A DNA stretch of 20,000 bases from an uncultured virus (IMG/VR IMGVR_UViG_3300020159_003425) (lineage: Duplodnaviria; Heunggongvirae; Uroviricota; Caudoviricetes). The stretch lies in IMG/VR virus record IMGVR_UViG_3300020159_003425; one strand, 5' to 3'. The notes below the pieces were generated by a model, which was not told the origin of the DNA, searched no databases, and saw only the letters and a list, made by a program, of their open reading frames with translations. This document shows positions 887-19,264 of this stretch, piece after piece. Made by a program: the position numbers and the translations under genes. Each line of letters begins with the position of its first letter. The stretch's first letter is position 1.

Positions 887-889
887 ATC

Positions 890-2976: not shown

Positions 2977-3204
2977 ATGTTAGTCAAAGTAGAAGGTACA
3001 AATCTGTATCGCGATACAGAAACTATGGCTTTAATTAATAGAGACACAAAAGAAAAAAACGATTACGTAATGAAGTCTCGTTTAATTAAGAACCAAAAAG
3101 ATCAAATAAATACCGTCAAAGAAGAAATAGAAGTCATCAAAGGTGAAATGTCTGAGATTAAACAATTGATGATAAAACTACTCGAAAAAGGTTCAAATGG
3201 CTAA
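2977..3204 (+). CDS. Small phage protein (75 aa) with C-terminal coiled coil, of the kind commonly found after DUF4815 genes in T4-like phages
   Basis: Likely start is ATG 2977, 1 nt after the upstream TAA, rather than 2947. Sequence MLVKVEGTNLYRD..TMALIN...EIEVIKGEMSEIKQLMIKLL. Its end overlaps the fibre start by 8 nt. Confidence 0.7.
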   Translation: MLVKVEGTNLYRDTETMALINRDTKEKNDYVMKSRLIKNQKDQINTVKEEIEVIKGEMSEIKQLMIKLLEKGSNG

Positions 3205-6200
3205 TACAGTTACATCGTTAAGTTACGCAAACACATTTGGTGAGTGGGTTGTTGCGACAAATAGTCTTATTAGAGAAAATAATGATCTTGCGGCAAACGA
3301 CTATGTTAAAAGCACAGGTACACTTTACCTGAATGAAACTACACAAAACTCTCTTCAAGCAAACGGTACCGTAATTATACAGAAACAGTTACTTGTACAA
3401 GGTACAGGTTCATCTGCTACTGTACAGAACAACATGAACGTTGGTAGTCAACTATATTTGACAAATGGTTCTTTAAGTTTAGTTGCTTCTGGTCAAGCAA
3501 ACGTTGCTGGGCAGATTAACGGGCAAGCTTCTGGTATTGGTCTATTCATTGCAAATAATGCACATATTGGTGGCAACACAGTTTCTGCGGTAAGAGTTAC
3601 GACAGGTATCTTGCAAGCAAACTCTTCTGTTAATACATCGAACGCTTCAATTGTTAACACAGTATTCACCAAAGATTTACAGGCAAACTCTACAGTTAAC
3701 ACAGCAACAGCTTCTGTAACTGGTACTACATTTACTAACGTATTACAAGCCAACACATCAACAAATACAAGCAACGCTTCGATTGTTGGAACAACATATA
3801 CTGGTATTTTACAGGCAAATACTTCTGCAACTGTTGGTACATTACAAGCTAATACATCAACAAATACTGCCACAGCATCCGTAACAGGTACCACATTTAC
3901 GAATGTATTGCAAGCAAATACATCAACAAATACTGCCACAGCATCTGTAACAGGTACCACATTTACTGGTGTACTGCAAGCCAACACCTCTACAAATACT
4001 GCCACAGCTTCTGTAACTGGCACCACATTTACAAATGTGTTACAATCCAATACGTCTGTTAATACAGCAACAGCGTCCATAACAGGCACCACTTTCACTA
4101 ATGTATTACAAGCCAATACATCAACAAATACAGCAACAGCATCCGTAACAGGCACCACATTTACTGGTACACTACAAGCTAATACTTCTGCAACTGTTGG
4201 TACACTACAAGCTAATACTTCTACAAATACAGCAACAGCATCTGTGACGGGCACCACATTTACAAATGTGTTACAATCCAATACGTCTGTTAATACAGCA
4301 ACAGCTTCTGTAACTGGCACCACTTTCACTAATGTATTACAAGCCAATACCTCTGTAAATTCACCATTGGTTGTCGCAAACAATATCACTTCAAACAATA
4401 CAATTACAGCAAATAATATTTCGTTGTCTAATGTATTGAATGGTAACACTGCCACAGGATACTTCAACAGTATTCAAGTTCAAGGTGGTGGTTTAACCAT
4501 TAACGGTAACTTTGTAATAACTGGCACAACAGTTTACACTGCGAACACTTTCATACTTTCTTCAGACGTTTCGTCTGGTATTTCGAGTTACTATAATGTA
4601 GATAGGGGTTCTTCTGGTGTAGATGCTGCATTCCGTTGGAATGAACTATCTTTGTACTGGGACATGTTGAATGTCACATCGAACGTATACTATCGTGTTC
4701 TAACGAATGAGTATTTTAATGATACGTTAACATCTACCAGCACCACATTAGTTGCAACCGCAAACGCAGTCAATGCATTAAATACACTTTATAATACATC
4801 AAATACATTCTTGCAAGCTGGTGTTGTTTCGAATGGTTTATATGCAAACGCAGCATTCTTAAGAGCTAACGCAGCATATGGTTCACAAAATACCACCGGC
4901 ACATACGCAAACTCTGCATATGCACAAGCCAACACTGCAACCAATAATGCAGCAGGAGCGTCCTTGTATGCAAACGGAGCTTTCATTCAAGCAAACGCAG
5001 CATTCTTAAGAGCCAATACACCAGATGCTATAGCTAACTCGGCAGCACTCTACGCTAATGGAGCTTTCACTCAAGCAAATTCTGGATATAATCAAGCGAA
5101 CACTGCTACAAACAATGCTGCAACAGCAGATTCTAAAGCAGTAACAGCTGGTTCTTATGCAAACTCAGCATATACACAAGCAAACACCGCGACCAATAAT
5201 GCGGCTGGCGCATCACTATATGCAAATGGTGCATTCATTCAAGCTAATGCAGCATTCTTAAGAGCCAATACACCAGATGCTATAGCTAACTCAGCAGCAC
5301 TTTATGCAAATGGTGCTTTCGTACAGGCTAACGCTGGTTATACACAAGCCAACACTGCAACTAATAATGCAGCTGGTGCCTCATTATATGCCAATGGTGC
5401 TTTTGTACAAGCCAATGCTGCTTATGCTCAAGCAAATACAGCAACCAATAATGCAGCAGGAGCATCTTTGTATGCTAATGGCGCTTTTAGACAAGCCAAT
5501 GCTGCTTATGCTCAAGCTAACACCACTGCATCTTCAGCTACAAACGCTAGTAATCTTTCAAGTGGCACCGTACCTCTTGCTAGACTGAGTGGAATAACAA
5601 CGACACAACTTAGTGCGTCTGCTGCTATTACAAATTCACAGTTAGCAAGCAGCACAATATCTGGTGTCTCCTTGGGTGGAACTTTACCATCACACACAGC
5701 TGGATCTTATTTGGTTGGTAGTGCTTATAATGGCAGTACAGGTCAAACATGGTCTGTTAACGCGACAACTACAAATACTTTTAGTGCAATTGCAGCAAGA
5801 GATGGTGCAGGTGACATATATGCAACAGTCTTCAGAGGACTTGCAACTAGTGCCAACTACGCCGACTTGGCAGAAAAATATCTAGCTGATAAAGAGTATG
5901 AAGTTGGAACAGTTGTTTCTGTTGGTGGTGAAGCTGAAGTTACTGCTAGTTCATATGGTGAGAGAGCAATCGGAGTAGTATCCGCTCATCCTGCTTATAT
6001 GATGAATAGTGAATTGGAAGGTGGAACTTACATTGCACTTAAAGGTAGGGTTCCAGTGAAAGTTACTGGCACTATACGCAAAGGGCAACGTTTGGTTGCA
6101 TACAACAATGGCACAGCAGTTGCAGCAGTACCACATGCAAGTGACGTTTTTGGTATTGCGTTAGAATCCAGTGATGATACTGGAACAAAACTAATTGAAG

Positions 6201-6214
6201 CAGTGATTTTATAA
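3197..6214 (+). CDS. Tail fibre/appendage protein (1005 aa) with internal repeats and a C-terminal intramolecular chaperone / autocleavage (Peptidase_G2-like) domain
   Basis: N-terminus MANTVTSLSYANTFGEW. The body is rich in Ala/Thr/Asn/Ser with two repeat blocks. The C-terminus ANYADLAEKY...GTVV..GG..EV...IGVVS..PAYMMN...IALKGRVPVKV.G.I.KG..LV is the IMC-type signature of phage fibres. Confidence 0.85.
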   Translation: MANTVTSLSYANTFGEWVVATNSLIRENNDLAANDYVKSTGTLYLNETTQNSLQANGTVIIQKQLLVQGTGSSATVQNNMNVGSQLYLTNGSLSLVASGQANVAGQINGQASGIGLFIANNAHIGGNTVSAVRVTTGILQANSSVNTSNASIVNTVFTKDLQANSTVNTATASVTGTTFTNVLQANTSTNTSNASIVGTTYTGILQANTSATVGTLQANTSTNTATASVTGTTFTNVLQANTSTNTATASVTGTTFTGVLQANTSTNTATASVTGTTFTNVLQSNTSVNTATASITGTTFTNVLQANTSTNTATASVTGTTFTGTLQANTSATVGTLQANTSTNTATASVTGTTFTNVLQSNTSVNTATASVTGTTFTNVLQANTSVNSPLVVANNITSNNTITANNISLSNVLNGNTATGYFNSIQVQGGGLTINGNFVITGTTVYTANTFILSSDVSSGISSYYNVDRGSSGVDAAFRWNELSLYWDMLNVTSNVYYRVLTNEYFNDTLTSTSTTLVATANAVNALNTLYNTSNTFLQAGVVSNGLYANAAFLRANAAYGSQNTTGTYANSAYAQANTATNNAAGASLYANGAFIQANAAFLRANTPDAIANSAALYANGAFTQANSGYNQANTATNNAATADSKAVTAGSYANSAYTQANTATNNAAGASLYANGAFIQANAAFLRANTPDAIANSAALYANGAFVQANAGYTQANTATNNAAGASLYANGAFVQANAAYAQANTATNNAAGASLYANGAFRQANAAYAQANTTASSATNASNLSSGTVPLARLSGITTTQLSASAAITNSQLASSTISGVSLGGTLPSHTAGSYLVGSAYNGSTGQTWSVNATTTNTFSAIAARDGAGDIYATVFRGLATSANYADLAEKYLADKEYEVGTVVSVGGEAEVTASSYGERAIGVVSAHPAYMMNSELEGGTYIALKGRVPVKVTGTIRKGQRLVAYNNGTAVAAVPHASDVFGIALESSDDTGTKLIEAVIL
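3611..4360 (+). repeat. Coding tandem repeat with 22-aa unit (LQANTSTNTATASVTGTTFTNV) and 11-aa half units (LQANTSATVGT)
   Basis: Visible in the translation. An identical 56-nt stretch occurs at 4019-4074 and 4250-4305 (offset 231 nt = 7 x 11 aa). Confidence 0.9.
4831..5530 (+). repeat. Coding heptad-based repeat (AN-x-A-x-x-x; units such as NAAGASLYANGAFxQANAAYAQANTATN)
   Basis: Visible in the translation. An identical 44-nt stretch occurs at 4997-5040 and 5249-5292 (offset 252 nt = 12 x 7 aa). Confidence 0.9.
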
Positions 6215-6292: not shown

Positions 6293-6778
6293 ATGATAAC
6301 ATTAAATGAATTTGAAAACTTCTTGTACACCGATTTGGTTTATGAACAGAAAATAGTTTCGGTAATTGACGATCAACATAGGCAGATATTGATTGAAAAT
6401 ATCCGGCAGTTACATGATTATACCAACTGCACCATAAAATTGGAACAAATGGAAAAATACAATGAAGGTATTTTCCAGAAGTGTCAAGAGTTGAGGAAGA
6501 AATACTCACATCCAGGTCCAGTAACCTGCCACGCATTTCTTGCGTTCAAAGGTTCCAAAAGTTTTGGTGTACACACTGACCCAGATAATGTTATAATAGA
6601 ATGTCTTTTTGGTTCAAAAACATTATATGTTGCAACCAAAAATGATAGAAGACATGTGCTCAAACAAGGCGAATATATATTCATACCAGCCAATACAGAA
6701 CATGAAATCATTAATGAAGAAAAGTCATTGATATTGAGTTTTGGATTTGAAAATTTTATACTGAAAAACTTAAATTAA
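6293..6778 (+). CDS. JmjC/cupin-fold Fe(II)/2-oxoglutarate oxygenase (Cupin_4-like)
   Basis: SFGVHTDPDNVII (HxD), GSKT, and LKQGEYIFIPANTEH (distal His) form the facial triad arrangement of JmjC/cupin hydroxylases. Confidence 0.75.
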   Translation: MITLNEFENFLYTDLVYEQKIVSVIDDQHRQILIENIRQLHDYTNCTIKLEQMEKYNEGIFQKCQELRKKYSHPGPVTCHAFLAFKGSKSFGVHTDPDNVIIECLFGSKTLYVATKNDRRHVLKQGEYIFIPANTEHEIINEEKSLILSFGFENFILKNLN

Positions 6779-6781
6779 ATT

Positions 6782-7831
6782 ATGGAATCGATGTTCTACC
6801 TCAAGACGACAGAAACTTGTAACCTAGACTGTCTTCACTGTTTCACAAGTGGTTCCAAAGGTGCAAAAATTTATTGGAATCATGTCAAGGTTGCTGACTG
6901 GTTACGAAAACTTTCGGCAAAAACACCACACATAACACACGCACATTTCGAATTTCATGGTGGTGAACCTTTCTTAGCAGACATTGCCTCCCTACAATAC
7001 GTATACGACAATTGCCAAAACCTTTGGCAGAGTCAAAGTTGGGGTGTCACAACCAATCTGACGTTCAAACTAGATCAAGAAAAGATAGATTTTATAATGG
7101 GTCCATTGGATGGTAGAGTTGGTACCAGTTGGGATCCAGACATACGATTTGCAAATCCAAAGCAATACGACTTGTGGAGAAAGAACGTACAAACACTGGT
7201 TGATTTGGGTGTTGTAATTAAACTGTTCATCAGTGTAACCAAGGGTACGATTGCAATAGAACCAATAGACTTACTAGAGTGGGTGAAATCTCTTGGTGTA
7301 AAAGAAATGGCATTAGAACGTTTAACAATGAACGGCAGTGCAAAGCAGAACTTACATATCTTTCCCACAAATATCGAACAAGACAAGTGGTTTTTGAAAA
7401 TGCACCAACAAAGTGAAGAACATGGTGCAAGAGACTGGTTCGTAAATGAATTTATGAAAACCGTATACGACAAATTCGAAACAGGATTTACAGGCGGCGG
7501 AACATTCTGTAGAGATTGTGAAGAGAAATTATTCACTGTGAATGCTGACGGCACCGTATCGGGATGTCCAAATTCTGCACCAGAATTTCAATTTGGCACC
7601 ATAGATGATGATATAGATGCGTTATTATCCAATCCTCAGAGATTGGAGAACATTGCTTGTGAAAGAGCAAGAGATCCAAGGTGTTACACATGTGAGGTGT
7701 TTCAGTATTGCAATAGTGATTGTCATCAGTTGGAATGGCAAGATGATATTTGTGGTGCACCAAAAAGTCTAATGATGGACTTGGCAAAAATAAATAAAAA
7801 ACATCCAGTTTTCAACCTTTTGCAGGTCTGA
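6782..7831 (+). CDS. Radical SAM/SPASM-domain protein (rSAM-1)
   Basis: CNLDCLHC (CX3CX2C) and FHGGEPF. SPASM-like CRDC...TVNADGTVSGCP and CYTCEVFQYCNSDC...C. Confidence 0.92.
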   Translation: MESMFYLKTTETCNLDCLHCFTSGSKGAKIYWNHVKVADWLRKLSAKTPHITHAHFEFHGGEPFLADIASLQYVYDNCQNLWQSQSWGVTTNLTFKLDQEKIDFIMGPLDGRVGTSWDPDIRFANPKQYDLWRKNVQTLVDLGVVIKLFISVTKGTIAIEPIDLLEWVKSLGVKEMALERLTMNGSAKQNLHIFPTNIEQDKWFLKMHQQSEEHGARDWFVNEFMKTVYDKFETGFTGGGTFCRDCEEKLFTVNADGTVSGCPNSAPEFQFGTIDDDIDALLSNPQRLENIACERARDPRCYTCEVFQYCNSDCHQLEWQDDICGAPKSLMMDLAKINKKHPVFNLLQV

Positions 7832-7832
7832 T

Positions 7833-8858
7833 GTGTTAACAAGAACAAAACCATACTCCACCGCATACGATCAGTACGGAGATCCATATAAACTTGTGGA
7901 ATTTCGTATGATGGTGTTGAACAACTGTTCTATGGACTGCAAAGGTTGTTTCTACAAAAGGACAGACAACAACTTCAATGATTTCAAGAGTTCAAGAAAT
8001 TTGGCAGAAGACATGCAGTCAAATGGATATAGACTGGAAACTTGTTATCTACTACCAACAGACATATTCGATAACAAAGACAACTATTCATTATTCGATA
8101 ATGAAGATTTTGCAAAAACGGTATCTCAATTTGCGTACCTGGGCATAGCATCAACATTGGAAGATGGTTTTGATACCAAATTCTTCGACATAGTTTATGG
8201 GTTAAATGATCATATCAAGATTGAATTGCAGGTGAATCTTCTCATCAATAGATTGTTTGATATAAACTATCAAATGATACTCAAACACAATGTAAACCGA
8301 ATCAAAAATCTATACAAGGATAGAGTAGTAATTAATCTGGCAATCAATACCGGATTCTCACTCGACACTAAGGAAAAGGATAAGATTAAATCGATGTTGA
8401 AATACCTTAGTGAAGATGGTATTGTCGAATTAAACTTCACTTTCCTATACAACAAAGATATTTCTGAGGAAAAGAAACAAAAGATGATGAAGGATAGCAT
8501 CAGAATCATTCAAGATTTTGGTGATTTCTACCAGGAAGATGAATCCTTTGTCACTAAATACAATATGCGTACATTTTTACGCAAACCATCTTTCGTTTTC
8601 GTTGGAGAACCAAACACAGTATACGTCAATCCAATAGTTCCTTTTGATGAATATGTGTATATCAAAAAAGATAGATACATTGTACAGACTCCAACATATG
8701 ATGGTTTTTTAAATTCTTATGGTAAAATAACTGAGATAAATACACCAGTAGTGGACGCCTGTGAGTCATGTGAAAACTTAACTCATTGTATGGGCAAGTT
8801 TTACTTTGCTATATCGAATGATTTTGACTTGGGGTGTTTCTTAAATCTGAAGGAATGA
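7833..8858 (+). CDS. Atypical radical SAM protein (rSAM-2) with C-terminal CX2CX5C cluster
   Basis: CSMDCKGC (CX3CX2C). LLPTDIF sits where GGEP is expected. C-terminal CESCENLTHC...C. The GTG start is 1 nt after the upstream stop and is uncertain. Confidence 0.75.
   Translation: MLTRTKPYSTAYDQYGDPYKLVEFRMMVLNNCSMDCKGCFYKRTDNNFNDFKSSRNLAEDMQSNGYRLETCYLLPTDIFDNKDNYSLFDNEDFAKTVSQFAYLGIASTLEDGFDTKFFDIVYGLNDHIKIELQVNLLINRLFDINYQMILKHNVNRIKNLYKDRVVINLAINTGFSLDTKEKDKIKSMLKYLSEDGIVELNFTFLYNKDISEEKKQKMMKDSIRIIQDFGDFYQEDESFVTKYNMRTFLRKPSFVFVGEPNTVYVNPIVPFDEYVYIKKDRYIVQTPTYDGFLNSYGKITEINTPVVDACESCENLTHCMGKFYFAISNDFDLGCFLNLKE
8736..8742 (+). promoter_or_regulatory. Possible T4-type late promoter (ATAAATA) upstream of the CHSS-repeat gene
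   Basis: gATAAATAc lies about 127 nt before ATG 8869. The 7-mer is common by chance in AT-rich DNA. Confidence 0.25.
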
Positions 8859-8868
8859 TGGAGAAAAA

Positions 8869-9408
8869 ATGGCAAATTCTGGTTCATTAATTACAAAACA
8901 AAGTATAGTAGATGATTACTATGCGTATATTCGGAATCCTGCTTATAACGCAGTAGTCTTTTGGTCCGGAGATAACCCAGGACCAACCAGAATTAACACT
9001 GGCGCACTTGGACCCAGAGATTTTAGTGCTAATTTGGCAACTGGCAACATAACAGATTCTGTTGTAACTGCTGCAACCATCATCAATCAGGTTAGGGCTT
9101 TTGCTGTATATACCACTGCTGCAAGAAGAGCGAGAAGTGGTTTCATAGTGGATGATTTTTCACCAGACAATCCACCATATACAATTGATGATAGAACCGA
9201 TGTTTGCCGCTTGACGGATTCTTATCTAATTAGTTACACTTATGGTGGAAGTGTGAGTAATCCTGTGGGCGCAACAAACATCAATCAATTCTACACTAAT
9301 ATTAGAGCAACTGCTCAGAATGCACAGACAACGGCCGATGTAGTAGATTTACGTGTGTGTCACAGTTCATGTCACAGTTCATGTCACTCATCAAGAGGAA
9401 GAAGATAA
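8869..9408 (+). CDS. Putative precursor/substrate protein (179 aa) with C-terminal (CHSS)3-RGRR tail and virion-protein-like body
   Basis: GGAG SD at 8860-8863. Ends VVDLRVCHSSCHSSCHSSRGRR. It has one Lys and no Glu, and all three His are in the tail. It lies amid radical SAM genes. Confidence 0.75.
   Translation: MANSGSLITKQSIVDDYYAYIRNPAYNAVVFWSGDNPGPTRINTGALGPRDFSANLATGNITDSVVTAATIINQVRAFAVYTTAARRARSGFIVDDFSPDNPPYTIDDRTDVCRLTDSYLISYTYGGSVSNPVGATNINQFYTNIRATAQNAQTTADVVDLRVCHSSCHSSCHSSRGRR
9358..9393 (+). repeat. 12-bp tandem repeat encoding CHSS x3
   Basis: tgtcacagttca tgtcacagttca tgtcactcatca. Confidence 0.95.
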
Positions 9409-10467
9409 ATGTTTCATATTGCTAACAGAGTGTATTTGGAATACGACTACAAATTTCATCAACAGTACCCATATATTGTTGCATCGAGTAGATGGAAAGA
9501 TCATCCAATAACTATATCGAAAAGTGAACTGATTGCTCAGGTACCGAGTTTTCAAGAACTATTATCTGAGAGATATAATAATAACATTGAAACCTTTTGG
9601 TCATCGTTATTATCAGAAACTAGAAAACTTATTGTTTTCGTTGATCCAGAAACCATGGCAAAGTTACAGTTCCAGTATTGGAAAAGTATTTTCAAAGATG
9701 ACATAAAGGCGGAAGACTTACACAAGTTGCACGCCAGTTGGATAGAAAGTAACAGATTGTCTAGTTACTACTCCTTAATTGGTTCATGGGACAGAGGCAC
9801 AAATTCATGGTCTAAATCCAATGCATTCACCGAGTTGGCAATACCGACTTTGGCGGATTCTACCAAATTATTCAATGAAACTGTTGCATCGAATACCATC
9901 AAATCGATGAACAAATCATCCATCAGTTTTGAATATTTGATGGCCGAGTTCTTTCACAACAATGCATCCAATTATAAACAAGAATTACTAAAAAGAATTG
10001 AGTTTCTAACTTGGGATAACTGGTTGGACGAACTGGAACACTTGAAATATGAAATCATTTCCGGCAATATCGATGCCGGTAAATTGGATACATCTCTAAG
10101 AATGAGTATTGGCAACATCGAAAGTGAACTGGCCAAAAGCGACTTGTTAAAATGGACTGTCGATCCAGCTTTTACCAATGATGCCGAGTATATTAAAGCA
10201 AATTATGATCCACAAATTTTCGTTAACTGTTATATCAAATTAGCAGAAGTATGGCAACACGACTACGATGACATGTCACAACTCAGCAGACTAATTAATG
10301 AGAAACAATATGAAGAATTGTTAAACAGAGATGTTAATAGAAACTATGGTTGCTCTTATACACGCACACGATTCTTTGCAAAATCCAACCATGTATTTGC
10401 CACATGGTGTTACGACTTGAAGAGAAAAGGACAAACTTCTCAGTTGGCACCATTCGTTCTACGTTAA
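9409..10467 (+). CDS. Hypothetical protein (352 aa), coupled to the CHSS-repeat gene
   Basis: TAA-ATG abutment at 9406-9411. Long ORF with no motif I recognise. Confidence 0.8.
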   Translation: MFHIANRVYLEYDYKFHQQYPYIVASSRWKDHPITISKSELIAQVPSFQELLSERYNNNIETFWSSLLSETRKLIVFVDPETMAKLQFQYWKSIFKDDIKAEDLHKLHASWIESNRLSSYYSLIGSWDRGTNSWSKSNAFTELAIPTLADSTKLFNETVASNTIKSMNKSSISFEYLMAEFFHNNASNYKQELLKRIEFLTWDNWLDELEHLKYEIISGNIDAGKLDTSLRMSIGNIESELAKSDLLKWTVDPAFTNDAEYIKANYDPQIFVNCYIKLAEVWQHDYDDMSQLSRLINEKQYEELLNRDVNRNYGCSYTRTRFFAKSNHVFATWCYDLKRKGQTSQLAPFVLR

Positions 10468-10504
10468 TGTAATATTTTATTGTTTGTGACTATTTAATTA
10501 TAAT

Positions 10505-11626
10505 ATGTATTCTGTATTTTCAAATGAATTCAATGTCGTTTACCTTAGAGTGGTTCAGGGGTGCAATTTAAATTGCACACATTGTTTCACATTAGGCAAT
10601 AAAGATCCTGTCATGTTTACGGAGTTATCCGTTTTGGAAAAGTTCTTAACGTCCATACGAAACAATGTGAACCCACAGAAAGTCACATTTTACATTCATG
10701 GTGGTGAAACATTTTTAGCTCCACTAAAATATCTATCGAGTGTGAATGATTTAATTCGGGAAAAGTTTCCTGATATAAAGATGGATATAATTCCACAAAC
10801 AAACTTAATCTACAAAGTGGACCAAGAGTTTGTGGAATTTATCAAAAAAGAATACAGAGGCACGATAGGTGTTAGTTGGGATGCCGATATACGATTCGGA
10901 TCGGTAGCCATCAACAAAAAATCTGAACAAGAAGAAGTGTTCTTTAAGAACCTCCGATATCTGATCGACAATGGCATCAAAGTACATATTGCTATCACTG
11001 CACAAAAGAATTTATTGAACTATGATCCAATAGAGATCGTAGAAAAATTTGATGGTGTTGATAGTATAGACTTTGAATTGTTAACTACATTCGATGATCA
11101 AACAAGAAGTCTACGACCAAACAATTTGAAATGGGCAAACTGGTTGGATAAATTGGTAACATATTATGAAGACAATAATACCACTTGGTGTTTGCCACAA
11201 ATTGATCTGTTTACCAAAACACTAATGACTGGAAAAATGTTTGATTGTAAATGCAATTGTTGCGACAAACGAACATTCACTTTAAATCCAAATGGTACCG
11301 TTGGTTTATGTCCAGACATGACTTATGTTGAACCATTCAGTACAGTGGACGAAATGTCAACGGATTGGCCAGCATTTGAATCCAAGTCTCTGGATCTGAT
11401 AATAAAGAAGATCACTGCACAACAAGAACATGAGATGTGTTTCAAGTGCGAACATTATGACATATGCGGTGGTAATTGCGACTCTTCTTTGTTCGATGAC
11501 ACCGAAGAGTGTCCATTAAGTAAGAAGGTAATTGGTCGTATAAGAGGCAATATAAATAAATTTATTCGACTTTATGAACAAAAAGCCAAATTTAATTTGA
11601 CAGAACTGAGAGAAAATTATGAATAA
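10505..11626 (+). CDS. Radical SAM/SPASM-domain protein (rSAM-3), paralog of rSAM-1
   Basis: CNLNCTHC, IHGGETF and GVSWDADIRF. SPASM-like CKCNCC...TLNPNGTVGLCP and CFKCEHYDICGGNC...CP. Confidence 0.92.
   Translation: MYSVFSNEFNVVYLRVVQGCNLNCTHCFTLGNKDPVMFTELSVLEKFLTSIRNNVNPQKVTFYIHGGETFLAPLKYLSSVNDLIREKFPDIKMDIIPQTNLIYKVDQEFVEFIKKEYRGTIGVSWDADIRFGSVAINKKSEQEEVFFKNLRYLIDNGIKVHIAITAQKNLLNYDPIEIVEKFDGVDSIDFELLTTFDDQTRSLRPNNLKWANWLDKLVTYYEDNNTTWCLPQIDLFTKTLMTGKMFDCKCNCCDKRTFTLNPNGTVGLCPDMTYVEPFSTVDEMSTDWPAFESKSLDLIIKKITAQQEHEMCFKCEHYDICGGNCDSSLFDDTEECPLSKKVIGRIRGNINKFIRLYEQKAKFNLTELRENYE
11551..11558 (+). promoter_or_regulatory. T4 late promoter consensus TATAAATA
   Basis: Exact match, 60 nt upstream of ATG 11619 and inside the 3' end of rSAM-3. 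It is the only perfect copy I spotted. Confidence 0.4.
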
Positions 11627-12365
11627 GATCCGAGAAACTGTGGCACCTTTGCCAATTGAAACAATCAAAGAATATTTTCACGACAAAGAAATTTCTTTCT
11701 TGGTTGATTATGAAAACTCTAAGATTGCAGATAAAATTTTCTTAACATATGTTTCAAATCTGGACATACCGTTAGATATCAAATTAAGAAAAGACTTTCC
11801 CAAAGAAAAATTGTTCTCGTTGATTGATGCATATATGGATATGAAAACAATATGTGATGTTAAAACTTTAAGTATGATGGTAGTACACATTCTACTCAAA
11901 GCAATCGGCGTAAACACGAAAGAGTCATTGTCAAATACTTTTATGACAGAAGAATTGGTTGATGAATTCATTGAAACAAGAAAAGAAAAAGTTTCAAGGT
12001 GGGCTCACTTTTTGGATTCTTCAATGTTGTTTCTGATTTATTCTTACAAAGATTTGAATGAAAAAATAAAAGTCGAAGAATCATTTCCTAAAATAGAAGA
12101 TGCAAACTATGTCGGTTTGAACATCGTAAACCTATTCAGTGTTCCTGGTTTTATGAATTGTTATTTCAGTGCGGGTCCAACACCAAGTATGAGTTTCTTC
12201 ACCGAACAATTCACCAAGTATATGTTCAAAGGTAAAAACCTATTTGATTATTTCAACAACGAAGAGAATATGTTTGTACCACTACTGGTTGGGCTTGTCG
12301 AAAAGAAGTTACATATGGATCCAAGAGAACAATTCAAGGACGATTTGAGTCTGGAAGTAAAATAA
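11619..12365 (+). CDS. Hypothetical protein (248 aa)
   Basis: Overlaps the rSAM-3 stop by 8 nt. Long ORF in operon context with no recognised motif. Confidence 0.8.
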   Translation: MNKIRETVAPLPIETIKEYFHDKEISFLVDYENSKIADKIFLTYVSNLDIPLDIKLRKDFPKEKLFSLIDAYMDMKTICDVKTLSMMVVHILLKAIGVNTKESLSNTFMTEELVDEFIETRKEKVSRWAHFLDSSMLFLIYSYKDLNEKIKVEESFPKIEDANYVGLNIVNLFSVPGFMNCYFSAGPTPSMSFFTEQFTKYMFKGKNLFDYFNNEENMFVPLLVGLVEKKLHMDPREQFKDDLSLEVK

Positions 12366-12366
12366 A

Positions 12367-13470
12367 ATGGACGCTTATTTGGCATCAGGTAGTCTTAAAG
12401 ACTCCTTCAATTTTTACTTCAACTTAAACTTTGAATTCTTAAATGGATGCCAGTTTAGTTGTAAGGGTTGCCACGTAAATAAAAATGGTGCTGAAGCTTT
12501 CGATGATGATAGTTATACACAATTGAAGAAAATTATGGAGAGTTTTAGTGAAGGCAACTCCTATAAACCCTTCATTGCATTCATTGCACCCACCGATTTC
12601 TTAAGTGCAACAAATACCGAATCTGTTTTATCTGATCCACGTGTGGTAGAAATCTTAAACAAATTCAAACGCATCAGTTTACAAACAACATACTTGGACA
12701 TTAACAGAGCTGAGAGTATTGGTAATATTTTACGCAAACACTATTCAAATATGGAATTGGAAATCAATGTCATCATTGAACCAGAAAAAATTGAAAATGA
12801 AAAATACCTTTCAGTATTAAAACGCAATCAAGGTTATGTAATTAGAAAAATGAACTGGCCAACACCAGTAAGAAGTTTTGGTATAATGAATGTGTATGAT
12901 TATGATACAACAAAAATGGCAGAGTTATTGAGAGACTATGACTTCTTGCACAAAAAGGTAGAACATCTTTTTGAAACCACAATCGATTTCAATTTCAGTT
13001 TGGGTAGAAAAGATGAACAGTTAACCTCTGAAGAATTTTTCTCTGCTGCACAAAAGATCAAAGACATGTTTAATGGTAGTGTTGTCTCGGAAGAAAAGGG
13101 ACAATACTTGAGATTTAGTTTTGGTCGACTGAATGATTCTCTAATCGAGAAACAGTACAACTGGAAAAATGGAGAGTTCTATTACAGTCCACTTCTCTAT
13201 GAGAGATATGTAAGTTTTGTAAGTGGTTTAAAAATACCAATCAAAGACTTCAACTTTAAAGAATTTGAAGAGTATGAAGAACAAATACAACTTAGCCAGT
13301 ATACTAATGTGGATGACAAGACAGAATGCGGAGACTGTCCCTTACTAGGTTCATGTGTTGACAGAGGCATTCTTCATCTTATGGATATTCACGGCATTAA
13401 GGATTGCTTAGTAGCCAAAAATGCCATGGATGTTGTCAATGCTATGGGAACACTACCCTATGGCCATTGA
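12367..13470 (+). CDS. Atypical radical SAM protein (rSAM-4), paralog of rSAM-2
   Basis: CQFSCKGC (CX3CX2C). IAPTDFL sits in place of GGEP. C-terminal CGDCPLLGSC...C. Confidence 0.8.
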   Translation: MDAYLASGSLKDSFNFYFNLNFEFLNGCQFSCKGCHVNKNGAEAFDDDSYTQLKKIMESFSEGNSYKPFIAFIAPTDFLSATNTESVLSDPRVVEILNKFKRISLQTTYLDINRAESIGNILRKHYSNMELEINVIIEPEKIENEKYLSVLKRNQGYVIRKMNWPTPVRSFGIMNVYDYDTTKMAELLRDYDFLHKKVEHLFETTIDFNFSLGRKDEQLTSEEFFSAAQKIKDMFNGSVVSEEKGQYLRFSFGRLNDSLIEKQYNWKNGEFYYSPLLYERYVSFVSGLKIPIKDFNFKEFEEYEEQIQLSQYTNVDDKTECGDCPLLGSCVDRGILHLMDIHGIKDCLVAKNAMDVVNAMGTLPYGH

Positions 13471-14203
13471 TTTACTGTATCTCGCAAACAATATCACCGA
13501 TCAAGAGTTTGCCAAGTTAGTAGTATCTTCTGGAGATTATTTTCCTGGTTTCTACAGATTCACTATGGGTGATAGAAACCACGAGCGCAAGCAATTGAGT
13601 CTAAAAGGATTGATTGCTTGTTATTTCGATCAAGAAGTCAATTCAAAAAAATACACCAGAGAACAGTGGACTACATACACTAAAGAACGTCATCATGTTT
13701 TAGATGCAAGAAATTCTTCCAGATCAGACAGTTGGGTTTATGAAATGTTGGACCAAGGTTATCTAAAATGGATGACAGAAGCAAGAGAGTATGACATTGC
13801 ACTGATCGAAATAGATTCTGGTGTAGATAGAATTGCACTAGATGAAACGTACTTCTTTATGGGAAGTTTGATTCGCTTTGAAAAAAATTCTTTATCTTTG
13901 GGATTTGATTTGTTGAGAAACGAATCAGTCTTGACTATTGAAACGGATACATCCGAACTGATTGAATATACCGAGAAAATGTATCAATCGCATCTGAAAG
14001 ATTTCTTTTTACCCGCAGATTGTGTTGCATCCTTAAAGATGAATGATAATCTAGGAACACTTTCAATGTCAGACAAAACTGTTGCTAGAGCAATGACTTC
14101 AGACAGTAACACAGTGGTGATCGCATCAAATAGAAATGTTAGTAAACAAATTCCTATTCGTTGGGCTAAAGATATAATATTGACAGAAGTAAATGAATTA
14201 TGA
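13460..14203 (+). CDS. Hypothetical protein (~247 aa)
   Basis: Likely start is ATG 13460 (MAIDLLYL; 11-nt overlap with rSAM-4) rather than 13421. No recognised motif. Confidence 0.75.
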   Translation: MAIDLLYLANNITDQEFAKLVVSSGDYFPGFYRFTMGDRNHERKQLSLKGLIACYFDQEVNSKKYTREQWTTYTKERHHVLDARNSSRSDSWVYEMLDQGYLKWMTEAREYDIALIEIDSGVDRIALDETYFFMGSLIRFEKNSLSLGFDLLRNESVLTIETDTSELIEYTEKMYQSHLKDFFLPADCVASLKMNDNLGTLSMSDKTVARAMTSDSNTVVIASNRNVSKQIPIRWAKDIILTEVNEL

Positions 14204-14619
14204 AACTACAAGATGAACATGATCATTTTCTGAAATGTGTACCCGATTTATTCAACTCTTGCACAATCACGAAGGTGAGTGAAGATGGTCTGGCACAGGT
14301 TGAATATGAATATTTCAAGAAAGCATTGTTTCCCATATCAACCATAGTGTTCTATGAACATGGTGATAAGTATTATTATCCATTGGCAATGGAGTTTCGT
14401 TTAATTGATAACAACATACTCTACTTGACAGAAGAACTGAGTGTGAATTCGGCTGAAGAATTGTTCCGAATACTGACCAGTTCGATGAACAAAGAAGAAA
14501 AATGGAGTAACGAATTCAAACTATGCGTTGTGCATACAAAGTCCAAACCAAAATATTGTTTACAATTAAAAGATGACTTCAACATATCGAATGTAAACGT
14601 GGAGCATGTGTATGAGTGA
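14200..14619 (+). CDS. Hypothetical protein (139 aa)
   Basis: ATGA 4-nt overlap with the upstream gene. Confidence 0.75.
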   Translation: MKLQDEHDHFLKCVPDLFNSCTITKVSEDGLAQVEYEYFKKALFPISTIVFYEHGDKYYYPLAMEFRLIDNNILYLTEELSVNSAEELFRILTSSMNKEEKWSNEFKLCVVHTKSKPKYCLQLKDDFNISNVNVEHVYE

Positions 14620-15664
14620 ATTTTTAAAACACGTATTGAAAGATAAAGTTCCAGACTCTACAGAAATTGAATTGCACCTTTTTGAGTTTTGCAATCTGAG
14701 TTGTAGTTTCTGTGGGCAAGACCATGATAGCGAAGAGGGTCTGAATACCGTATCAGAAAAGGCCAAACAAGTAATAGACTTTATGCAAAAGTCTGGCAAA
14801 ACCAGCCACATTGTCAACAGCATGGGTGGAGAAATATTTAATGATCTGGTACCTGACGAAACACTCTCACAATACTGGGATTTTTATACTGAAATAAATG
14901 ATTGGTGTATCAGTAACAACCATAAAGTCAGATTCAATTGGGTAACAAATTTAATATTCCAAAAAAGTGAACGTGTTCTAGATTTGATTACACGTATGAG
15001 AAATGTGAGTGGCAATGCATACATTTCCACCAGTTATGACTTTGCTGGGCGTGGATTGGACATAAACAAAACAATCCAGTTTGATGCCAACCTCAAAAAA
15101 TTTGGTGATTGGATTACTGTGATAGGTTTCGTTATGACAAAGCCTGCCATAAGAAAAATTCTGACGAAGACTGATAAATTTTTTAGTGAAAACTTATACA
15201 AGAATTATACATTGTACTTTGATTACTATGTTCCTGAACTGAGATCAGATAAAAACATGCCGAGTGAACAAGAGATGTTGGACTGCATGTTGTTTATTGC
15301 AAAGAACTATCCTAACATTTATCCAATCAAAGATTTGATTGTTAATGAACACAACAAGATGACATGTTATAGCATGAACAAGGTAACTATTCTTCCCAGT
15401 GGCAAAGAGGTTACATGTCGATACTTGGATTACGAACCAGTTCAGTTCATAAATAAAATTGACTATAAGTCAAATAGCAATATAATAGAAGCTCATTTGG
15501 AAAGAAACAAATGTCTGGGATGTAAATGGTTTGACCGTTGTGCATTCAGGTGTTTTGTTCAGGCAGATTGGGCAGAATTGGAACGAACAAAAGAATGTCT
15601 TTTTAGGGAATTCTTTAATCAAGTGAATGAATTGGGCATGTTAAAATATGGATCTAATAATTAA
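14612..15664 (+). CDS. Radical SAM/SPASM-like protein (rSAM-5)
   Basis: GGAG at 14601-14604 favours ATG 14612. CNLSCSFC and MGGEIF. C-terminal CYSMNKVTILPSGKEVTC and CLGCKWFDRCAFRC...C. Confidence 0.9.
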   Translation: MSEFLKHVLKDKVPDSTEIELHLFEFCNLSCSFCGQDHDSEEGLNTVSEKAKQVIDFMQKSGKTSHIVNSMGGEIFNDLVPDETLSQYWDFYTEINDWCISNNHKVRFNWVTNLIFQKSERVLDLITRMRNVSGNAYISTSYDFAGRGLDINKTIQFDANLKKFGDWITVIGFVMTKPAIRKILTKTDKFFSENLYKNYTLYFDYYVPELRSDKNMPSEQEMLDCMLFIAKNYPNIYPIKDLIVNEHNKMTCYSMNKVTILPSGKEVTCRYLDYEPVQFINKIDYKSNSNIIEAHLERNKCLGCKWFDRCAFRCFVQADWAELERTKECLFREFFNQVNELGMLKYGSNN

Positions 15665-16715
15665 ACCAACGGAAAGATGCAATTTCAAATGCACTTTTTG
15701 TTCCAGCACACACATCACCGAAGATAAGACTGCTGAATTAGATCACGAATACATCTTCAAGTTTCTCAAAAGATATCCAGAAACACAAACAATCATAGTC
15801 AATGGTGGGGATCCACTAATGATGCATCCGGATTATTACTGGAAAATAATAGAACACTTGGATGAGATCAACAGTCCTGCTAGCATAAGTTTCACTAGCA
15901 ACCTTTGGCCATTCTATAAAAATCCCGAAAAGTGGATTGACCTCTTCAGACACCCTCGCATGGGTATTACAACCAGTTTTCAATACGGTGGCGGTAGGTT
16001 GAAGGGAGACCTATCCGAATTCACAGAAGAAGACTTTTGGTCCGTCAGTGACATGATGTCGGAACTGGTAGGATACAGACCAGATTTTATTGCGGTAATT
16101 ACCGAAGAGAATGAAAAAGATGCCATTAAGAATGTGGAACTGGCAAAAAGAATGAACGTTGTATGCAAATTAAATTATGCATTGAGCAGTGGACCTCCTG
16201 TAAAATTCAAAAATATTGTAATGGGACAAGAAGGTCGTCCATATATGTTATCAAAAATATATGAAATCTATGTTGATATATGGAAAAAGAATCTTGCACC
16301 TTGGGAATACAACACAACACAAATGATTCGTAGATTGAGTCAAGGCAATACAACTTGCCCACAAAATCGAAACTGCGATTCGGGAATCAGAACATTACAA
16401 CCTAGTGGAGACTATTATAGTTGTGGTGCATTTGGTGATGACAATCTATACAAGATAGATTTCGAAAAAGAAATGTCCGGTAAAAAGATATTTCCATTGA
16501 AGTATCAACAAGAATTGCAAAGTTTAAAACAATCTTGTTTCACCTGTCCCATGTTTGAGATATGCAATGGTTGCAAAAAGACAATTAAAGATTTGAAAGA
16601 TTATAATATGGTGGAAGATCATTGCTTCAGAATGAAAAAGATTGCACCTGATATCATAGAAGCCAATGGATTAACCGGTATTTTGGAACCAACACCGTAT
16701 GTCAAAGAATATTAA
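15648..16715 (+). CDS. Radical SAM/SPASM-domain protein (rSAM-6)
   Basis: IIKPTERCNFKCTFC and NGGDPL. CPQNRNC...LQPSGDYYSCG and CFTCPMFEICNGC...HC. Confidence 0.92.
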   Translation: MDLIIKPTERCNFKCTFCSSTHITEDKTAELDHEYIFKFLKRYPETQTIIVNGGDPLMMHPDYYWKIIEHLDEINSPASISFTSNLWPFYKNPEKWIDLFRHPRMGITTSFQYGGGRLKGDLSEFTEEDFWSVSDMMSELVGYRPDFIAVITEENEKDAIKNVELAKRMNVVCKLNYALSSGPPVKFKNIVMGQEGRPYMLSKIYEIYVDIWKKNLAPWEYNTTQMIRRLSQGNTTCPQNRNCDSGIRTLQPSGDYYSCGAFGDDNLYKIDFEKEMSGKKIFPLKYQQELQSLKQSCFTCPMFEICNGCKKTIKDLKDYNMVEDHCFRMKKIAPDIIEANGLTGILEPTPYVKEY

Positions 16716-17403
16716 TATACTGGCTCCCAGTTCATATCAAATAAAAGTTGATGTAAAAGCTTATGCGGAAGACCGAATCGACTATGAGAAAGCCATAAAA
16801 TATAGATGCCCAAATTTTTTACACAAGAATGGAAAAATATATGCATCAAAGCTTGGTGAACCCTATGTAGCCGTGACTGTTAGCCCATATCATATAAATT
16901 TTCAGTCTCAGATAGAAGAACCTGTTTGGCCAGTTGTAAAAGGATTAGTTGACAAAGGTTATTTGCCAGTAAGTAGTTGTGGTGGACATACGGATCCTTG
17001 GTGGGAATATTATTTTATGATTGCGGTTGGTACAGAAGAACAGGTTGAAGAAATTACAAATGCATTCAACAATGTTCCGAACACGCACATAGATGTTTAT
17101 CACAGTGTGGCTAACGTACATCAATACTACGAACACGGCAAATTTAAGTATCGACCTCTAGAGGAGTTGGAAGGAACAAACAAAGGTGAATGTCGTGATT
17201 TAAATATTTTATTGAATAGAAACTATTCAAACTATTTTTTCATTAGAGTTAGATTCAAACACGAAACATTTGCACTCATTTTTAATCCTTTCAATATTTT
17301 TGCACCACACTTCTTTCATAAACGAGAAATTGAAGAGTTTGATTTGTGGAAAAAGAATCTTTTGAATTATGTAGAGAATAAAATTGAATACTTTTATGGA
17401 TAA
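16699..17403 (+). CDS. Hypothetical protein (234 aa) with an SSCGGH motif
   Basis: 17-nt overlap with rSAM-6. Contains IEEPVWPVVKGLVDKGYLPVSSCGGH. Confidence 0.75.
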   Translation: MSKNINILAPSSYQIKVDVKAYAEDRIDYEKAIKYRCPNFLHKNGKIYASKLGEPYVAVTVSPYHINFQSQIEEPVWPVVKGLVDKGYLPVSSCGGHTDPWWEYYFMIAVGTEEQVEEITNAFNNVPNTHIDVYHSVANVHQYYEHGKFKYRPLEELEGTNKGECRDLNILLNRNYSNYFFIRVRFKHETFALIFNPFNIFAPHFFHKREIEEFDLWKKNLLNYVENKIEYFYG

Positions 17404-18316
17404 ACCAATTACTGTTTCAGTTAATCCAAGTTACTTCTGCAACTTCAGGTGTGACTTTTGTTATCTGACAGAAGAACAGTTGTCGGACCAAAAGAAAATA
17501 GAACTGGAAAAACTGGATGATTTACTCTCACAGATACCAAACATAGAACACATTGATCTATATGGTGGTGAAATTGGTGCGTTAAAGAAAGACTATTTCT
17601 ATGGGCTTAAAGACACCATTCGAAAACACTATGATGGTAAAATTAACATCATCACAAACTATTCGATGTTGCATGAAGGATTCTACGAGGATGATTTCTA
17701 CCTAAGTGTCAGTTACGATTGGGATGCAAGGGAAAAGTCGGATCGTGTCTATCAAAATATGTTGATGAGCCCGGTACCAATAGCGGTACTGGTTCTTGCC
17801 AGCCCTAAAGTCATAGAGATGAATGTGGACGAATTGATTATGAGCTTGAATCTTTGCAACAGTGTGAAGAGTGTGGAGATAAAACCATACAGTGACAATC
17901 AAGCCAATCAACACAGAGTCACACACAAAGAATATGAAGAGTTTGTAAAACGTTGGATAGAAAGCCCAATACAAAAGAATTTCGAGTTCATTAATGAGTA
18001 TTATTTGGAAGATGTATTAGATGATAACAGAAACGCATTCAGTGATGATCACATCTACATCACACCCAATGGTAAGTTTGCCGTTCTGGAGTTTGATCTA
18101 AATGACAACGAATACTTCTTGGAGTTGGATAGTTGGGACGATTACATTGCCTGGACCAAAAAAGAAAAGAAGAGTAACGTAAGTGACATTTGTAGGAGTT
18201 GTGAATTTTATGGTAAGTGCCTGACAGAACACTATCGTTATGTCAAGGATCTAAATAACAGTTGTAATGGTTATAAATTTTTAATAGAGTGGTATCGTGA
18301 ACGAGTGGAAAATTAG
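17396..18316 (+). CDS. Radical SAM protein (rSAM-7) with reduced C-terminal Cys cluster
   Basis: Likely start is ATG 17396. VNPSYFCNFRCDFC and YGGEIG. C-terminal CRSCEFYGKCLTEH...SC. Confidence 0.9.
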   Translation: MDKPITVSVNPSYFCNFRCDFCYLTEEQLSDQKKIELEKLDDLLSQIPNIEHIDLYGGEIGALKKDYFYGLKDTIRKHYDGKINIITNYSMLHEGFYEDDFYLSVSYDWDAREKSDRVYQNMLMSPVPIAVLVLASPKVIEMNVDELIMSLNLCNSVKSVEIKPYSDNQANQHRVTHKEYEEFVKRWIESPIQKNFEFINEYYLEDVLDDNRNAFSDDHIYITPNGKFAVLEFDLNDNEYFLELDSWDDYIAWTKKEKKSNVSDICRSCEFYGKCLTEHYRYVKDLNNSCNGYKFLIEWYRERVEN

Positions 18317-18695
18317 ACAAGAAATATATCACAGACTGAACACAGATTTTGATGATGATTTGAACACCAAAGAAGTTGAGTTTTCAGATGAGATAGTGCA
18401 TAATGCAGTTCGTTATTTCACCGAACGTGATATTGGATGGATATATCCAGCCAAGAGTTACATGGTTGGCATTTGTTATGCACGCTGGTTGTCTGAATAC
18501 TTTGGTGGTAATCCAATAGAATACCTGGACGAACAAGACTTACTCCACGGAAACGATCCTTACTTCAAAAAATACAGTGAGGCCAAAGAAATCTATGATG
18601 AAATAATGATCAAGATCAATGACTGGAATTTTGATGAATCTGCCGGTATGGTACCAGATGTAAAAGGTTATTTTATGGAAGAATTTATGTTATGA
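18297..18695 (+). CDS. Hypothetical acidic protein (132 aa)
   Basis: GTG start overlaps rSAM-7 by 20 nt and the stop overlaps the next ATG (ATGA). Contains YPAKSY and GNDPYF motifs of unknown meaning. Confidence 0.7.
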   Translation: MNEWKIRQEIYHRLNTDFDDDLNTKEVEFSDEIVHNAVRYFTERDIGWIYPAKSYMVGICYARWLSEYFGGNPIEYLDEQDLLHGNDPYFKKYSEAKEIYDEIMIKINDWNFDESAGMVPDVKGYFMEEFML

Positions 18696-19264
18696 TTCAA
18701 AATCTTTGGCCGACACCTTTCTTGAAAACACAAATTTCGGAAGAAATAAAAACCGATTTAGTAAATTATTTGTTAACAAAGTATGATTTCTTCAATGCAT
18801 CCGGTGAACTGAGTAATGTAAATGTCTTAGATGATGATTCGGATGTGATTGAAAATTTTAATCAAAAAGTTGCACTTCCATTGTTTGATAATTTTTTAAA
18901 AGATTCTCTCGGTAAAGATATCTCATGTTGGAAAGATTTTAAATTAAAGGGCTGGTTGACTGGGACAGGAAAAAACTATTCATCAATACCACATAATCAT
19001 AAAGGTGCCAGTCTTTCGGCCGTATTTTATATTTTTTGTGAAGAAATAGATAGGGGTGGTGAGATATATTTCACCGATCCAAGACAAAATTCAAACAGGG
19101 GTTATGACAATCAATTTTCTTCTTGGTTTGAGTCACTATCTTTCACACCAAAAAGTGGTGATGTTGTAATTTTTCCAAGTTTTTTGTATCATTATGTTGC
19201 AACCTATAGAGGAAATATCAGAATAGCTATGCCTGTTGACCTTTTCCTCTATACAAATGAGTGA
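18692..19264 (+). CDS. 2OG-Fe(II) oxygenase (TIGR02466 / 2OG-FeII_Oxy_5-like)
   Basis: LWPTP N-terminus, PHNHKGASLSAVFY (HxH), GEIYFTDPR, and PKSGDVVIFPSFLYHYV...RI (distal His, 2OG-binding Arg). Confidence 0.85.
   Translation: MIQNLWPTPFLKTQISEEIKTDLVNYLLTKYDFFNASGELSNVNVLDDDSDVIENFNQKVALPLFDNFLKDSLGKDISCWKDFKLKGWLTGTGKNYSSIPHNHKGASLSAVFYIFCEEIDRGGEIYFTDPRQNSNRGYDNQFSSWFESLSFTPKSGDVVIFPSFLYHYVATYRGNIRIAMPVDLFLYTNE

What the first reader, a model, noticed from the sequence alone, without database searches (positions are those of the whole stretch)
9358..9408. (CHSS)3-RGRR C-terminal tail: likely modified core peptide
Seen in sequence: a 12-bp repeat encodes CHSSCHSSCHSS followed by RGRR-stop, and it holds all the His and three of the four Cys of the protein. 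The third copy uses a different Ser codon family (TCA vs AGT) yet keeps the peptide, which suggests selection at the protein level. Established: Cys every fourth residue is the pattern of SCIFF/ranthipeptide and CXXX-repeat rSAM substrates, and His-Xaa-Ser is the repeat of HxsA substrates of HxsB/HxsC rSAM maturases. Inference: this tail merges both motifs and could receive Cys-to-carbon thioethers and/or His-Ser crosslinks, or form a metal-binding site. RGRR could be a recognition or cleavage signal.
Basis: partly seen in the sequence, partly recalled or inferred. Interest (0 to 1): 0.88.

Follow-up and report, generated by a model that had tools for sequence, protein, structure and literature searches.

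The report
Enzyme-tailored Cys-His tail on fibre protein
A small phage particle protein ends in a nearly invariant cysteine-histidine-arginine tail that travels with a set of radical-SAM enzymes beside adhesive-fibre genes, in phages and in predatory bacteria, so it is probably a chemically modified part of the apparatus that grips the victim cell.

Summary
Confirmed: 9358-9408 encodes CHSSCHSSCHSSRGRR-stop on a 179-aa protein. It is not chance: a search using only a homologue's body returned 119 of 120 proteins with three Cys-His units and 120 of 120 ending R-x-R-R. The gene lies in a 13-kb cassette with seven radical SAM genes behind a tail-fibre gene. The link holds both ways (81 of 81 tail loci; 58 of 62 enzyme loci; control gene 4 of 15). 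The Atu_ph07 homologue gp170 is in purified particles; its enzymes are not. This scan found the family before on other DNA. Added here: in predatory Bdellovibrionota the cassette lies within 17 kb of an S74-chaperone fibre gene (19 of 28 genomes, about 1 expected); glycine-rich domains are fused or inserted into the protein; and one phage lineage lacks RGRR together with enzyme S5. Best reading: a fibre-associated protein whose tail stays attached and is cross-linked by radical SAM enzymes, not an excised peptide. No modification has been observed; the chemistry is inferred. It fails the HXS membership tests. My paper searches found no description.

The parts
9358..9408 (+). (CHxS)3-RGRR tail and stop; inferred modification site
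   Evidence: C164 H165 C168 H169 C172 H173 invariant in A1 and A3; body-only search 119 of 120
8869..9408 (+). 179-aa tail-bearing protein (PRE): three helices, each after a similar 'xxTAxxI' motif, plus a long beta-hairpin; inferred fibre-associated virion protein
   Evidence: PHROG 35144; homologue Atu_ph07 gp170 in virions
8736..8743 (+). ATAAATAC, T4-type late-promoter-like element 133 nt before PRE (consensus recalled); the other three copies in the window precede structural ORFs (1265, 3106, 19311)
   Evidence: kept in L001 and L021
9394..9399 (+). AGAGGA inside the RGRR codons, Shine-Dalgarno-like for the gene at 9409
   Evidence: spacing to next ATG
3197..6214 (+). Tail fibre (TF), left border of the cassette
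   Evidence: PHROG 19602 tail fibre; no Pfam S74 hit
6293..6778 (+). Cupin/JmjC-like oxygenase, optional
   Evidence: found in 4 of 20 predator genomes
6782..7831 (+). S1, radical SAM/SPASM, core enzyme
   Evidence: kept in the minimal cassette
7833..8858 (+). dA, divergent radical SAM-like protein (CX3CX2C intact), rare subtype shared with Bdellovibrionota
9409..10467 (+). U1, conserved unknown protein
   Evidence: PHROG 36207
10505..11626 (+). S2, radical SAM/SPASM, rare subtype shared with Bdellovibrionota
11619..12365 (+). U2, tightly linked unknown protein, candidate helper
   Evidence: within three genes downstream in 100 of 105 loci; model pLDDT 94.7
12367..13470 (+). dB, divergent radical SAM-like protein (CX3CX2C intact)
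   Evidence: PHROG 31457
13421..14619 (+). U3 and U4, unknown, rare subtype shared with Bdellovibrionota
14606..15664 (+). S3, radical SAM/SPASM
   Evidence: tree
15648..16715 (+). S4, radical SAM/SPASM, core enzyme, 57-65% identical in cultured jumbo phages
16699..17403 (+). U5, unknown, optional
17384..18316 (+). S5, radical SAM with a short C-terminal Cys cluster; candidate for acting on the Arg end
18297..18695 (+). U6, small partner that follows S5
   Evidence: PHROG 20737
18692..19264 (+). 2OG-Fe(II) oxygenase
19349..19690 (+). LtfC-like fibre assembly gene, right border of the cassette
   Evidence: follows TF directly or after one ORF in many relatives without the cassette

Best explanation
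The tail is the substrate end of a late, fibre-associated particle protein and stays attached. Shown: conservation, two-way linkage to the enzymes, position beside fibre genes, presence of a homologue in virions. Inferred: before assembly S1 and S4 (the only two SPASM-type enzymes kept in the minimal cassette), helped by U2/U1, use the 5'-deoxyadenosyl radical to cross-link each Cys-His-x-(Ser/Asn/Ala/Asp) unit, most simply a Cys-to-carbon thioether or a His-containing bridge; S5 with U6 (perhaps S3) acts on the R-x-R-R end; oxygenases and dA/dB/S2 are optional decorators. The matured protein then works at the end of a trimeric fibre as an adhesin platform, in the role that gp38 plays in T2-like phages, in both phages and predatory bacteria. 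My odds: tail modified by the cassette 0.7; fibre-associated adhesion role 0.5; thioether chemistry specifically 0.35.
For: Tail far more conserved than body (mean top-residue frequency 0.89 vs 0.40; partly circular) and non-circular body-only tests (119 of 120; 89 of 90). Radical SAM gene in 81 of 81 viral tail loci, three or more in 47 of 48 with full flanks. Reverse: tail near S1 in 62 of 68 loci (58 of 62 with enough flank), near S4 in 61 of 80 (56 of 61); control structural gene 4 of 32 (4 of 15). Atu_ph07 gp170: 8 peptides, 35% coverage, gp165-169, 171, 172 absent (PMC6102473 Table S5). ATAAATA within 160 nt upstream: PRE 56 of 162, TF 81 of 146, S1/S4/S5 5 of 116, 4 of 90, 1 of 80, background 0.03. 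TF-family gene upstream in 49 of 67 viral loci. S74 fibre gene within 17 kb in 19 of 28 predator-type genomes, 0.94 expected. Gly_rich_2 domain fused (P0108) or inserted, splitting the gene (L251). RGRR-less lineage: no S5, S3, U6 or cupin orthologue on 12 of 12 contigs tested, both controls positive; S5 in 20 of 20 RxRR-bearing predator genomes. Precedents: radical SAM enzymes modify folded proteins at SHRSS (PMC13128918) and install thioethers (PMC13692751).
Against: No modification has been observed; gene neighbourhood is not catalysis. The virion prep was PEG-purified and gp170 is a distant homologue (hhalign covers only the last 72 columns; fold TM 0.54). None of 7 enzymes reaches a known maturase cut-off and none has room for an N-terminal RRE (motif at residue 11-32). 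18 of 67 viral loci lack a TF-family gene upstream and G003 has no S74 gene nearby on a long contig. The RGRR-less contigs are 7-41% complete and probably one lineage, so one event. Predator PRE proteins begin without an evident signal peptide (read by eye), so export is unexplained. Genomes and loci are related, so counts are not independent.
Confidence: 0.55

Rival explanations
1. The enzymes join tails between subunits, building a covalent oligomer or filament of the protein on the particle rather than rings within one tail.
For: 31.9-kDa gp170 is most abundant in gel band 1, where 87-139 kDa proteins peak, and spreads over bands 1-9, while the adjacent fibre gp176 peaks in band 4.
Against: The loading buffer lists no reductant, so disulfides or aggregation explain it too; gp321 (36 kDa) also peaks in band 1.
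Confidence: 0.15
2. The tail is an unmodified Cys3His3 metal site (Zn, Fe or an Fe-S cluster); the cassette loads or builds a metal centre on it, or makes a separate small molecule.
For: Exactly the metal ligands Cys and His are invariant; marine T4-like phages carry many Fe-S genes (PMC5332604 passages); tail pLDDT falls to 73 then 45.
Against: The Ser/Asn/Ala position and the Arg end are also conserved; loss of RGRR goes with loss of S5; repeat number varies from 3 upward, unlike a fixed site; several SPASM enzymes suit peptide chemistry better.
Confidence: 0.17
3. Classical RiPP: the body is a long leader, the tail is cut off after modification and acts as a small molecule.
For: Variable body with invariant C-terminal motif beside SPASM enzymes; long folded leaders exist in proteusins (search listing).
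Against: Homologue in virions without its enzymes; late-promoter-like element; adhesin-type fusions; no peptidase or transporter recognised; one protein has the repeats internally (P0198).
Confidence: 0.08
4. RGRR is kept only because its codons supply the ribosome-binding site of the next gene.
For: AGA-GGA is the commonest codon pair (129 and 104 of 203) and the next ATG overlaps or follows the stop within a few bases in most loci (78 of 192 at -1).
Against: 58 of 203 tails use CGN for the first Arg, and the second residue varies (S, I, T, N) while the three Arg stay (120 of 120).
Confidence: 0.05

Closest known systems
HXS antiphage system (HxsA, HxsB, HxsC, HxsD; PMC13128918, abstract and section 9 read)
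   Same: Folded protein with His-x-Ser repeats and basic residues, matured by a pair of radical SAM enzymes plus a small helper. In HxsA's SHRSS the first Ser, the His and the C-terminal Ser are essential; here positions 1, 2 and 5 of C-H-x-S-C are the invariant ones.
   Different: Enzymes score 29 bits against HxsB/HxsC cut-offs of 370 and 268; repeats are C-terminal and contain Cys; no peptidoglycan-binding domain; encoded by the attacker and found in virions, not a periplasmic defence.
CrpA/CrpC of Methanococcus voltae (PMC13692751, abstract and discussion read); ranthipeptide maturases PapB and SCIFF CteB
   Same: SPASM radical SAM enzyme beside a Cys-patterned substrate; CrpA is a whole protein; Cys every fourth residue.
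   Different: One enzyme with an RRE there, up to seven without an evident RRE here; no Asp/Glu acceptor pattern; PapB model 45 bits vs cut-off 340, SCIFF 20 vs 425.
Gp38 adhesin of T2/T6/S16-like phages (PMC12032242, passages read)
   Same: Small monomeric protein encoded after the fibre gene, with an attachment domain and a glycine-rich receptor-binding part; PRE variants carry Gly_rich_2 domains (that this Pfam family is the gp38-type polyglycine fold is recalled, not tested).
   Different: No sequence or fold match to gp38 was found; gp38 has no Cys-His tail or enzyme cassette.
MAT fibres of Bdellovibrio bacteriovorus (PMC10769870, passages read)
   Same: S74-chaperone, phage-like trimeric fibres used by a predator to recognise prey.
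   Different: The S74 proteins beside the cassette are 330-410 aa with a prepilin-type N-terminus (N_methyl hit in 7 of 11, 4 over cut-off), not ~1000-aa MATs; 'radical' does not occur in that paper's text.

Membership tests
HXS system | HxsB (TIGR03978) and HxsC (TIGR03977) orthologues | tested here: not met
   best scores 29.1 and 29.4 bits vs cut-offs 370 and 267.9
HXS system | His-Xaa-Ser repeats in the substrate | tested here: met
   H-x-S in all three units here; Ser 175, 147 and 166 of 189 in homologues
HXS system | HxsA family match, peptidoglycan-binding domain, periplasmic export | tested here: not met
   no NCBIfam or Pfam match for the protein or consistent match among 119 homologues
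HXS system | +8 Da modification on the motif | not testable with these tools
   needs mass spectrometry
Ranthipeptide/sactipeptide (SCIFF, PapB, CXXX-repeat) | Radical SAM enzyme with SPASM-type auxiliary Cys | tested here: met
   TIGR04085 over cut-off for S1 (32.1) and S2 (28); Cys maps
Ranthipeptide/sactipeptide (SCIFF, PapB, CXXX-repeat) | Maturase family cut-off | tested here: not met
   PapB 45/340, SCIFF 20/425, CXXX 19.5/150
Ranthipeptide/sactipeptide (SCIFF, PapB, CXXX-repeat) | Cys-to-carbon thioether in the product | not testable with these tools
   needs MS with alkylation and desulfurisation
Classical RiPP | Leader removed by a peptidase, product exported | tested here: inconclusive
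   no peptidase or transporter recognised among cassette genes, but six are of unknown function
Gp38-type adhesin | Three-domain gp38 fold | tested here: inconclusive
Gp38-type adhesin | Encoded behind the fibre gene, present in the virion | tested here: met
c-type cytochrome | CxxCH haem motif and export | tested here: not met
   spacing is C-x3-C-H throughout; no cytochrome family match

The most novel reading that the evidence does not exclude
Phages and predatory bacteria share, and repeatedly exchange, a dedicated multi-enzyme radical SAM pathway that converts a 16-residue Cys-His-Arg tail into a new cross-linked chemical group on a fibre-tip adhesin: one conserved, enzyme-built grip (possibly metal-chelating) for Gram-negative prey surfaces, with separate enzymes for the CHxS rings (S1, S4) and the Arg end (S5).
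Probability: 0.3. Interest if true: 0.92.

Novelty: new variant of a known kind. Interest (0 to 1): 0.77.

Why it matters
Radical SAM clusters in large phages have been listed as DNA-repair or metabolic extras (PMC8541153, PMC5332604 passages). This gives them a concrete candidate substrate, in cultured phages where it can be tested at once (Atu_ph07 gp170, pPa_SNUABM_DT01 gp65). If true it is RiPP-like chemistry on a virion protein, up to seven unstudied enzymes for one 16-residue tail, and a shared attachment module between two unrelated kinds of bacterial predator. The natural RGRR-less variant suggests which enzymes do what.

Full report
Observation. Window 9358-9408 encodes CHSSCHSSCHSSRGRR-stop at the end of a 179-aa ORF, 8869-9408. 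All three His and three of four Cys are in the tail. The motif CHxxCHxxCH occurs once in the window and never in 300 shuffles.

Conservation. All six Cys/His are invariant in the first 47 sequences. A profile found 759 clusters at 50% identity; of the 192 proteins held then, 189 had the three Cys-His units and 135 ended in the exact RGRR form. To avoid circularity I searched with the body only: 338 hits, best 120 examined, 119 with three units, 120 ending R-x-R-R. A body-only profile over loci fetched by neighbouring genes gave 90 distinct complete proteins: 88 full tails, one without RxRR, one half of a split gene.

Surroundings. The window is the tail region of a T4-like phage (PHROG hits). 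Between the tail fibre (3197-6214) and an LtfC-like gene (19349) lie 16 genes: PRE, five radical SAM enzymes of PHROG 1802 (S1-S5), two divergent proteins with intact CX3CX2C (dA, dB), a cupin, a 2OG oxygenase and six unknowns. Relatives fetched by a structural gene mostly lack the block, with LtfC following the fibre, so it is an insertion. Of 81 loci with flanks (some share a contig) 81 hold a radical SAM family gene, 47 of 48 with full flanks hold three or more, and U2 follows within three genes in 100 of 105 loci of all kinds. In reverse, S1 loci hold the tail in 62 of 68 (58 of 62 with enough flank) and S4 loci in 61 of 80 (56 of 61); the misses with enough flank are rearranged or split cassettes; the control gene gives 4 of 32 (4 of 15).

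What the protein is. The model is confident for the body (pLDDT 87.7) and weak for the last residues. No solved fold matches; BFVD gives four phage proteins at E<=0.001, among them the 296-aa Atu_ph07 protein. S4 finds the cassette in 15 records of cultured jumbo phages; in the four I translated the gene after S1 ends in the tail. The Atu_ph07 one is gp170. Table S5 of PMC6102473 (supplement part 3 read) lists gp170 in particles with 8 peptides and 35% coverage, most abundant in the top gel band, and none of gp165-169, 171, 172; the prep was PEG-purified and the buffer lists no reductant. A late-promoter-like ATAAATA (consensus recalled) precedes PRE in 56 of 162 and the fibre in 81 of 146 cases, but S1, S4, S5 in at most 4%, near the 3% background. 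Two variants tie the protein to glycine-rich domains: a fusion (P0108) and an insertion that splits the gene (L251; L008 shows the same layout).

Predatory bacteria. In one genome per species, the pattern gave 47 hits, 37 in-frame tails, 26 of them titled Bdellovibrionota (my count of the titles). Flanks read are housekeeping genes, not prophage. In 28 predator-type genomes (26 so titled, one untitled, one titled Flavobacteriaceae) an S74-chaperone gene lies on the same contig within 17 kb in 19; eight misses are on contigs of 22 kb or less and one (G003) is a true miss; 0.94 would be expected from 0-13 S74 genes per genome (genomes are related). These S74 proteins have prepilin-type starts. 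So in both kinds of predator the cassette sits beside a fibre gene. This window's subtype is closest to predator cassettes.

A natural variant. Twenty-four viral loci end CHGS(I/L)-stop. In the three read in full the block runs fibre, S1, PRE, U2, two U1-like genes, S4, a B12 radical SAM, one or two AspH-like oxygenases, next fibre. No S5, S3, U6 or cupin orthologue was found on 12 of 12 contigs tested (of 24; 7-41% complete), with both controls positive. S5 is present in 20 of 20 RxRR-bearing predator genomes tested, the cupin in 4 of 20. This is probably one evolutionary event, but it points to S1+S4 for the Cys-His units and S5 for the Arg end.

How it most likely works. Late expression; S1 and S4 with U1/U2 cross-link the three Cys-His-x-Ser units by radical chemistry; S5/U6 treat the Arg end; the tail stays on a folded protein that joins the particle at a fibre and serves in adhesion or its stabilisation. 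Linkage, conservation and virion presence are shown; the chemistry, the division of labour and the position on the fibre are inferred (0.55 overall). Rivals: an unmodified metal site (0.17), inter-subunit covalent polymer (0.15), released peptide (0.08), RGRR as a mere ribosome-binding site (0.05).

Comparison. It works most like HXS (PMC13128918, abstract and section 9) and CrpA/CrpC (PMC13692751, abstract and discussion), but fails the HxsB/HxsC, PapB, SCIFF and CXXX cut-offs and has no HxsA match. In role it resembles gp38 (PMC12032242 passages) and sits near MAT-like biology (PMC10769870 passages), without membership in either. Papers on the cultured phages only list the enzymes (passages: PMC11898562, PMC8066314, PMC8541153). 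Searches found no description; subscription journals and bioRxiv supplements were not visible. This scan reported the family on other DNA; I took the virion, HXS, late-gene and predator leads from those notes and checked them; a look-up for the S74/pilin link returned nothing.

Verdict. A real, widespread, apparently undescribed radical SAM cassette with its probable substrate tail. New variant of a known kind (radical SAM maturation of a folded protein); interest 0.77.

Noticed in passing
L352:14933-21521 and L353: A different cassette at the same site behind the tail fibre: four radical SAM genes and a 199-aa protein ending in a Cys-every-fourth tail with Gln instead of His. Only a 13-column, low-probability match to the PRE profile; no match in cultured phages.
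   Followed up: partly
L327, L330 versus window 6293-19264: Phages 91-92% identical to this one in the structural ORF at 1320 carry another cassette subtype (no dA, RSRR tail), so cassettes are swapped between close relatives.
   Followed up: partly
window 7833-15664; L021, L132, L136-L138, L146, L157, L164: This window's rare subtype (dA, S2, U3, U4) is shared mostly with Bdellovibrionota; S3 groups with L021, RSL2-like phages and 8 Bdellovibrionota (SH-aLRT 99, quick tree, 82 rows). Predator sequences fall at several places in the tree. No donor was tested.
   Followed up: partly
L129, L135, L145, L154, L155, L170, L381, L382: Short proteins joining a prepilin-type N-terminus to a C-terminal S74 chaperone, often three in a row with a conserved ~200-aa gene: possibly pilus-borne fibres of predators.
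   Followed up: partly
L357:1113-4438: The RGRR-less cassette carries a B12-binding radical SAM gene and two AspH-like hydroxylases before the next S74 fibre; a similar B12 enzyme lies beside predator cassette L132.
   Followed up: partly
L002, L020, L026 and similar: A subtype with two tandem 125-140 aa tail proteins and four or more dB paralogues; S1, S4, S5 lie in a separate block.
   Followed up: no
L153:3907-4266; L158:7371-8051: Tail proteins in two Bacillota genomes; the Dysosmobacter one has about eleven Cys-His units with spacers.
   Followed up: no
window 149-1339: A 245-aa ORF with a Gly-linker and a separate C-terminal domain plus a 149-aa ORF interrupt what looks like one long structural gene (PHROG 358 pieces at 149 and 1320); relatives have a single ~1690-aa ORF upstream.
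   Followed up: no
P0197, P0198: Long variants: a 533-aa protein with a large insert before the last helix, and a 415-aa protein with internal Cys-His repeats followed by Thr/Gln/Pro repeats and another domain.
   Followed up: partly
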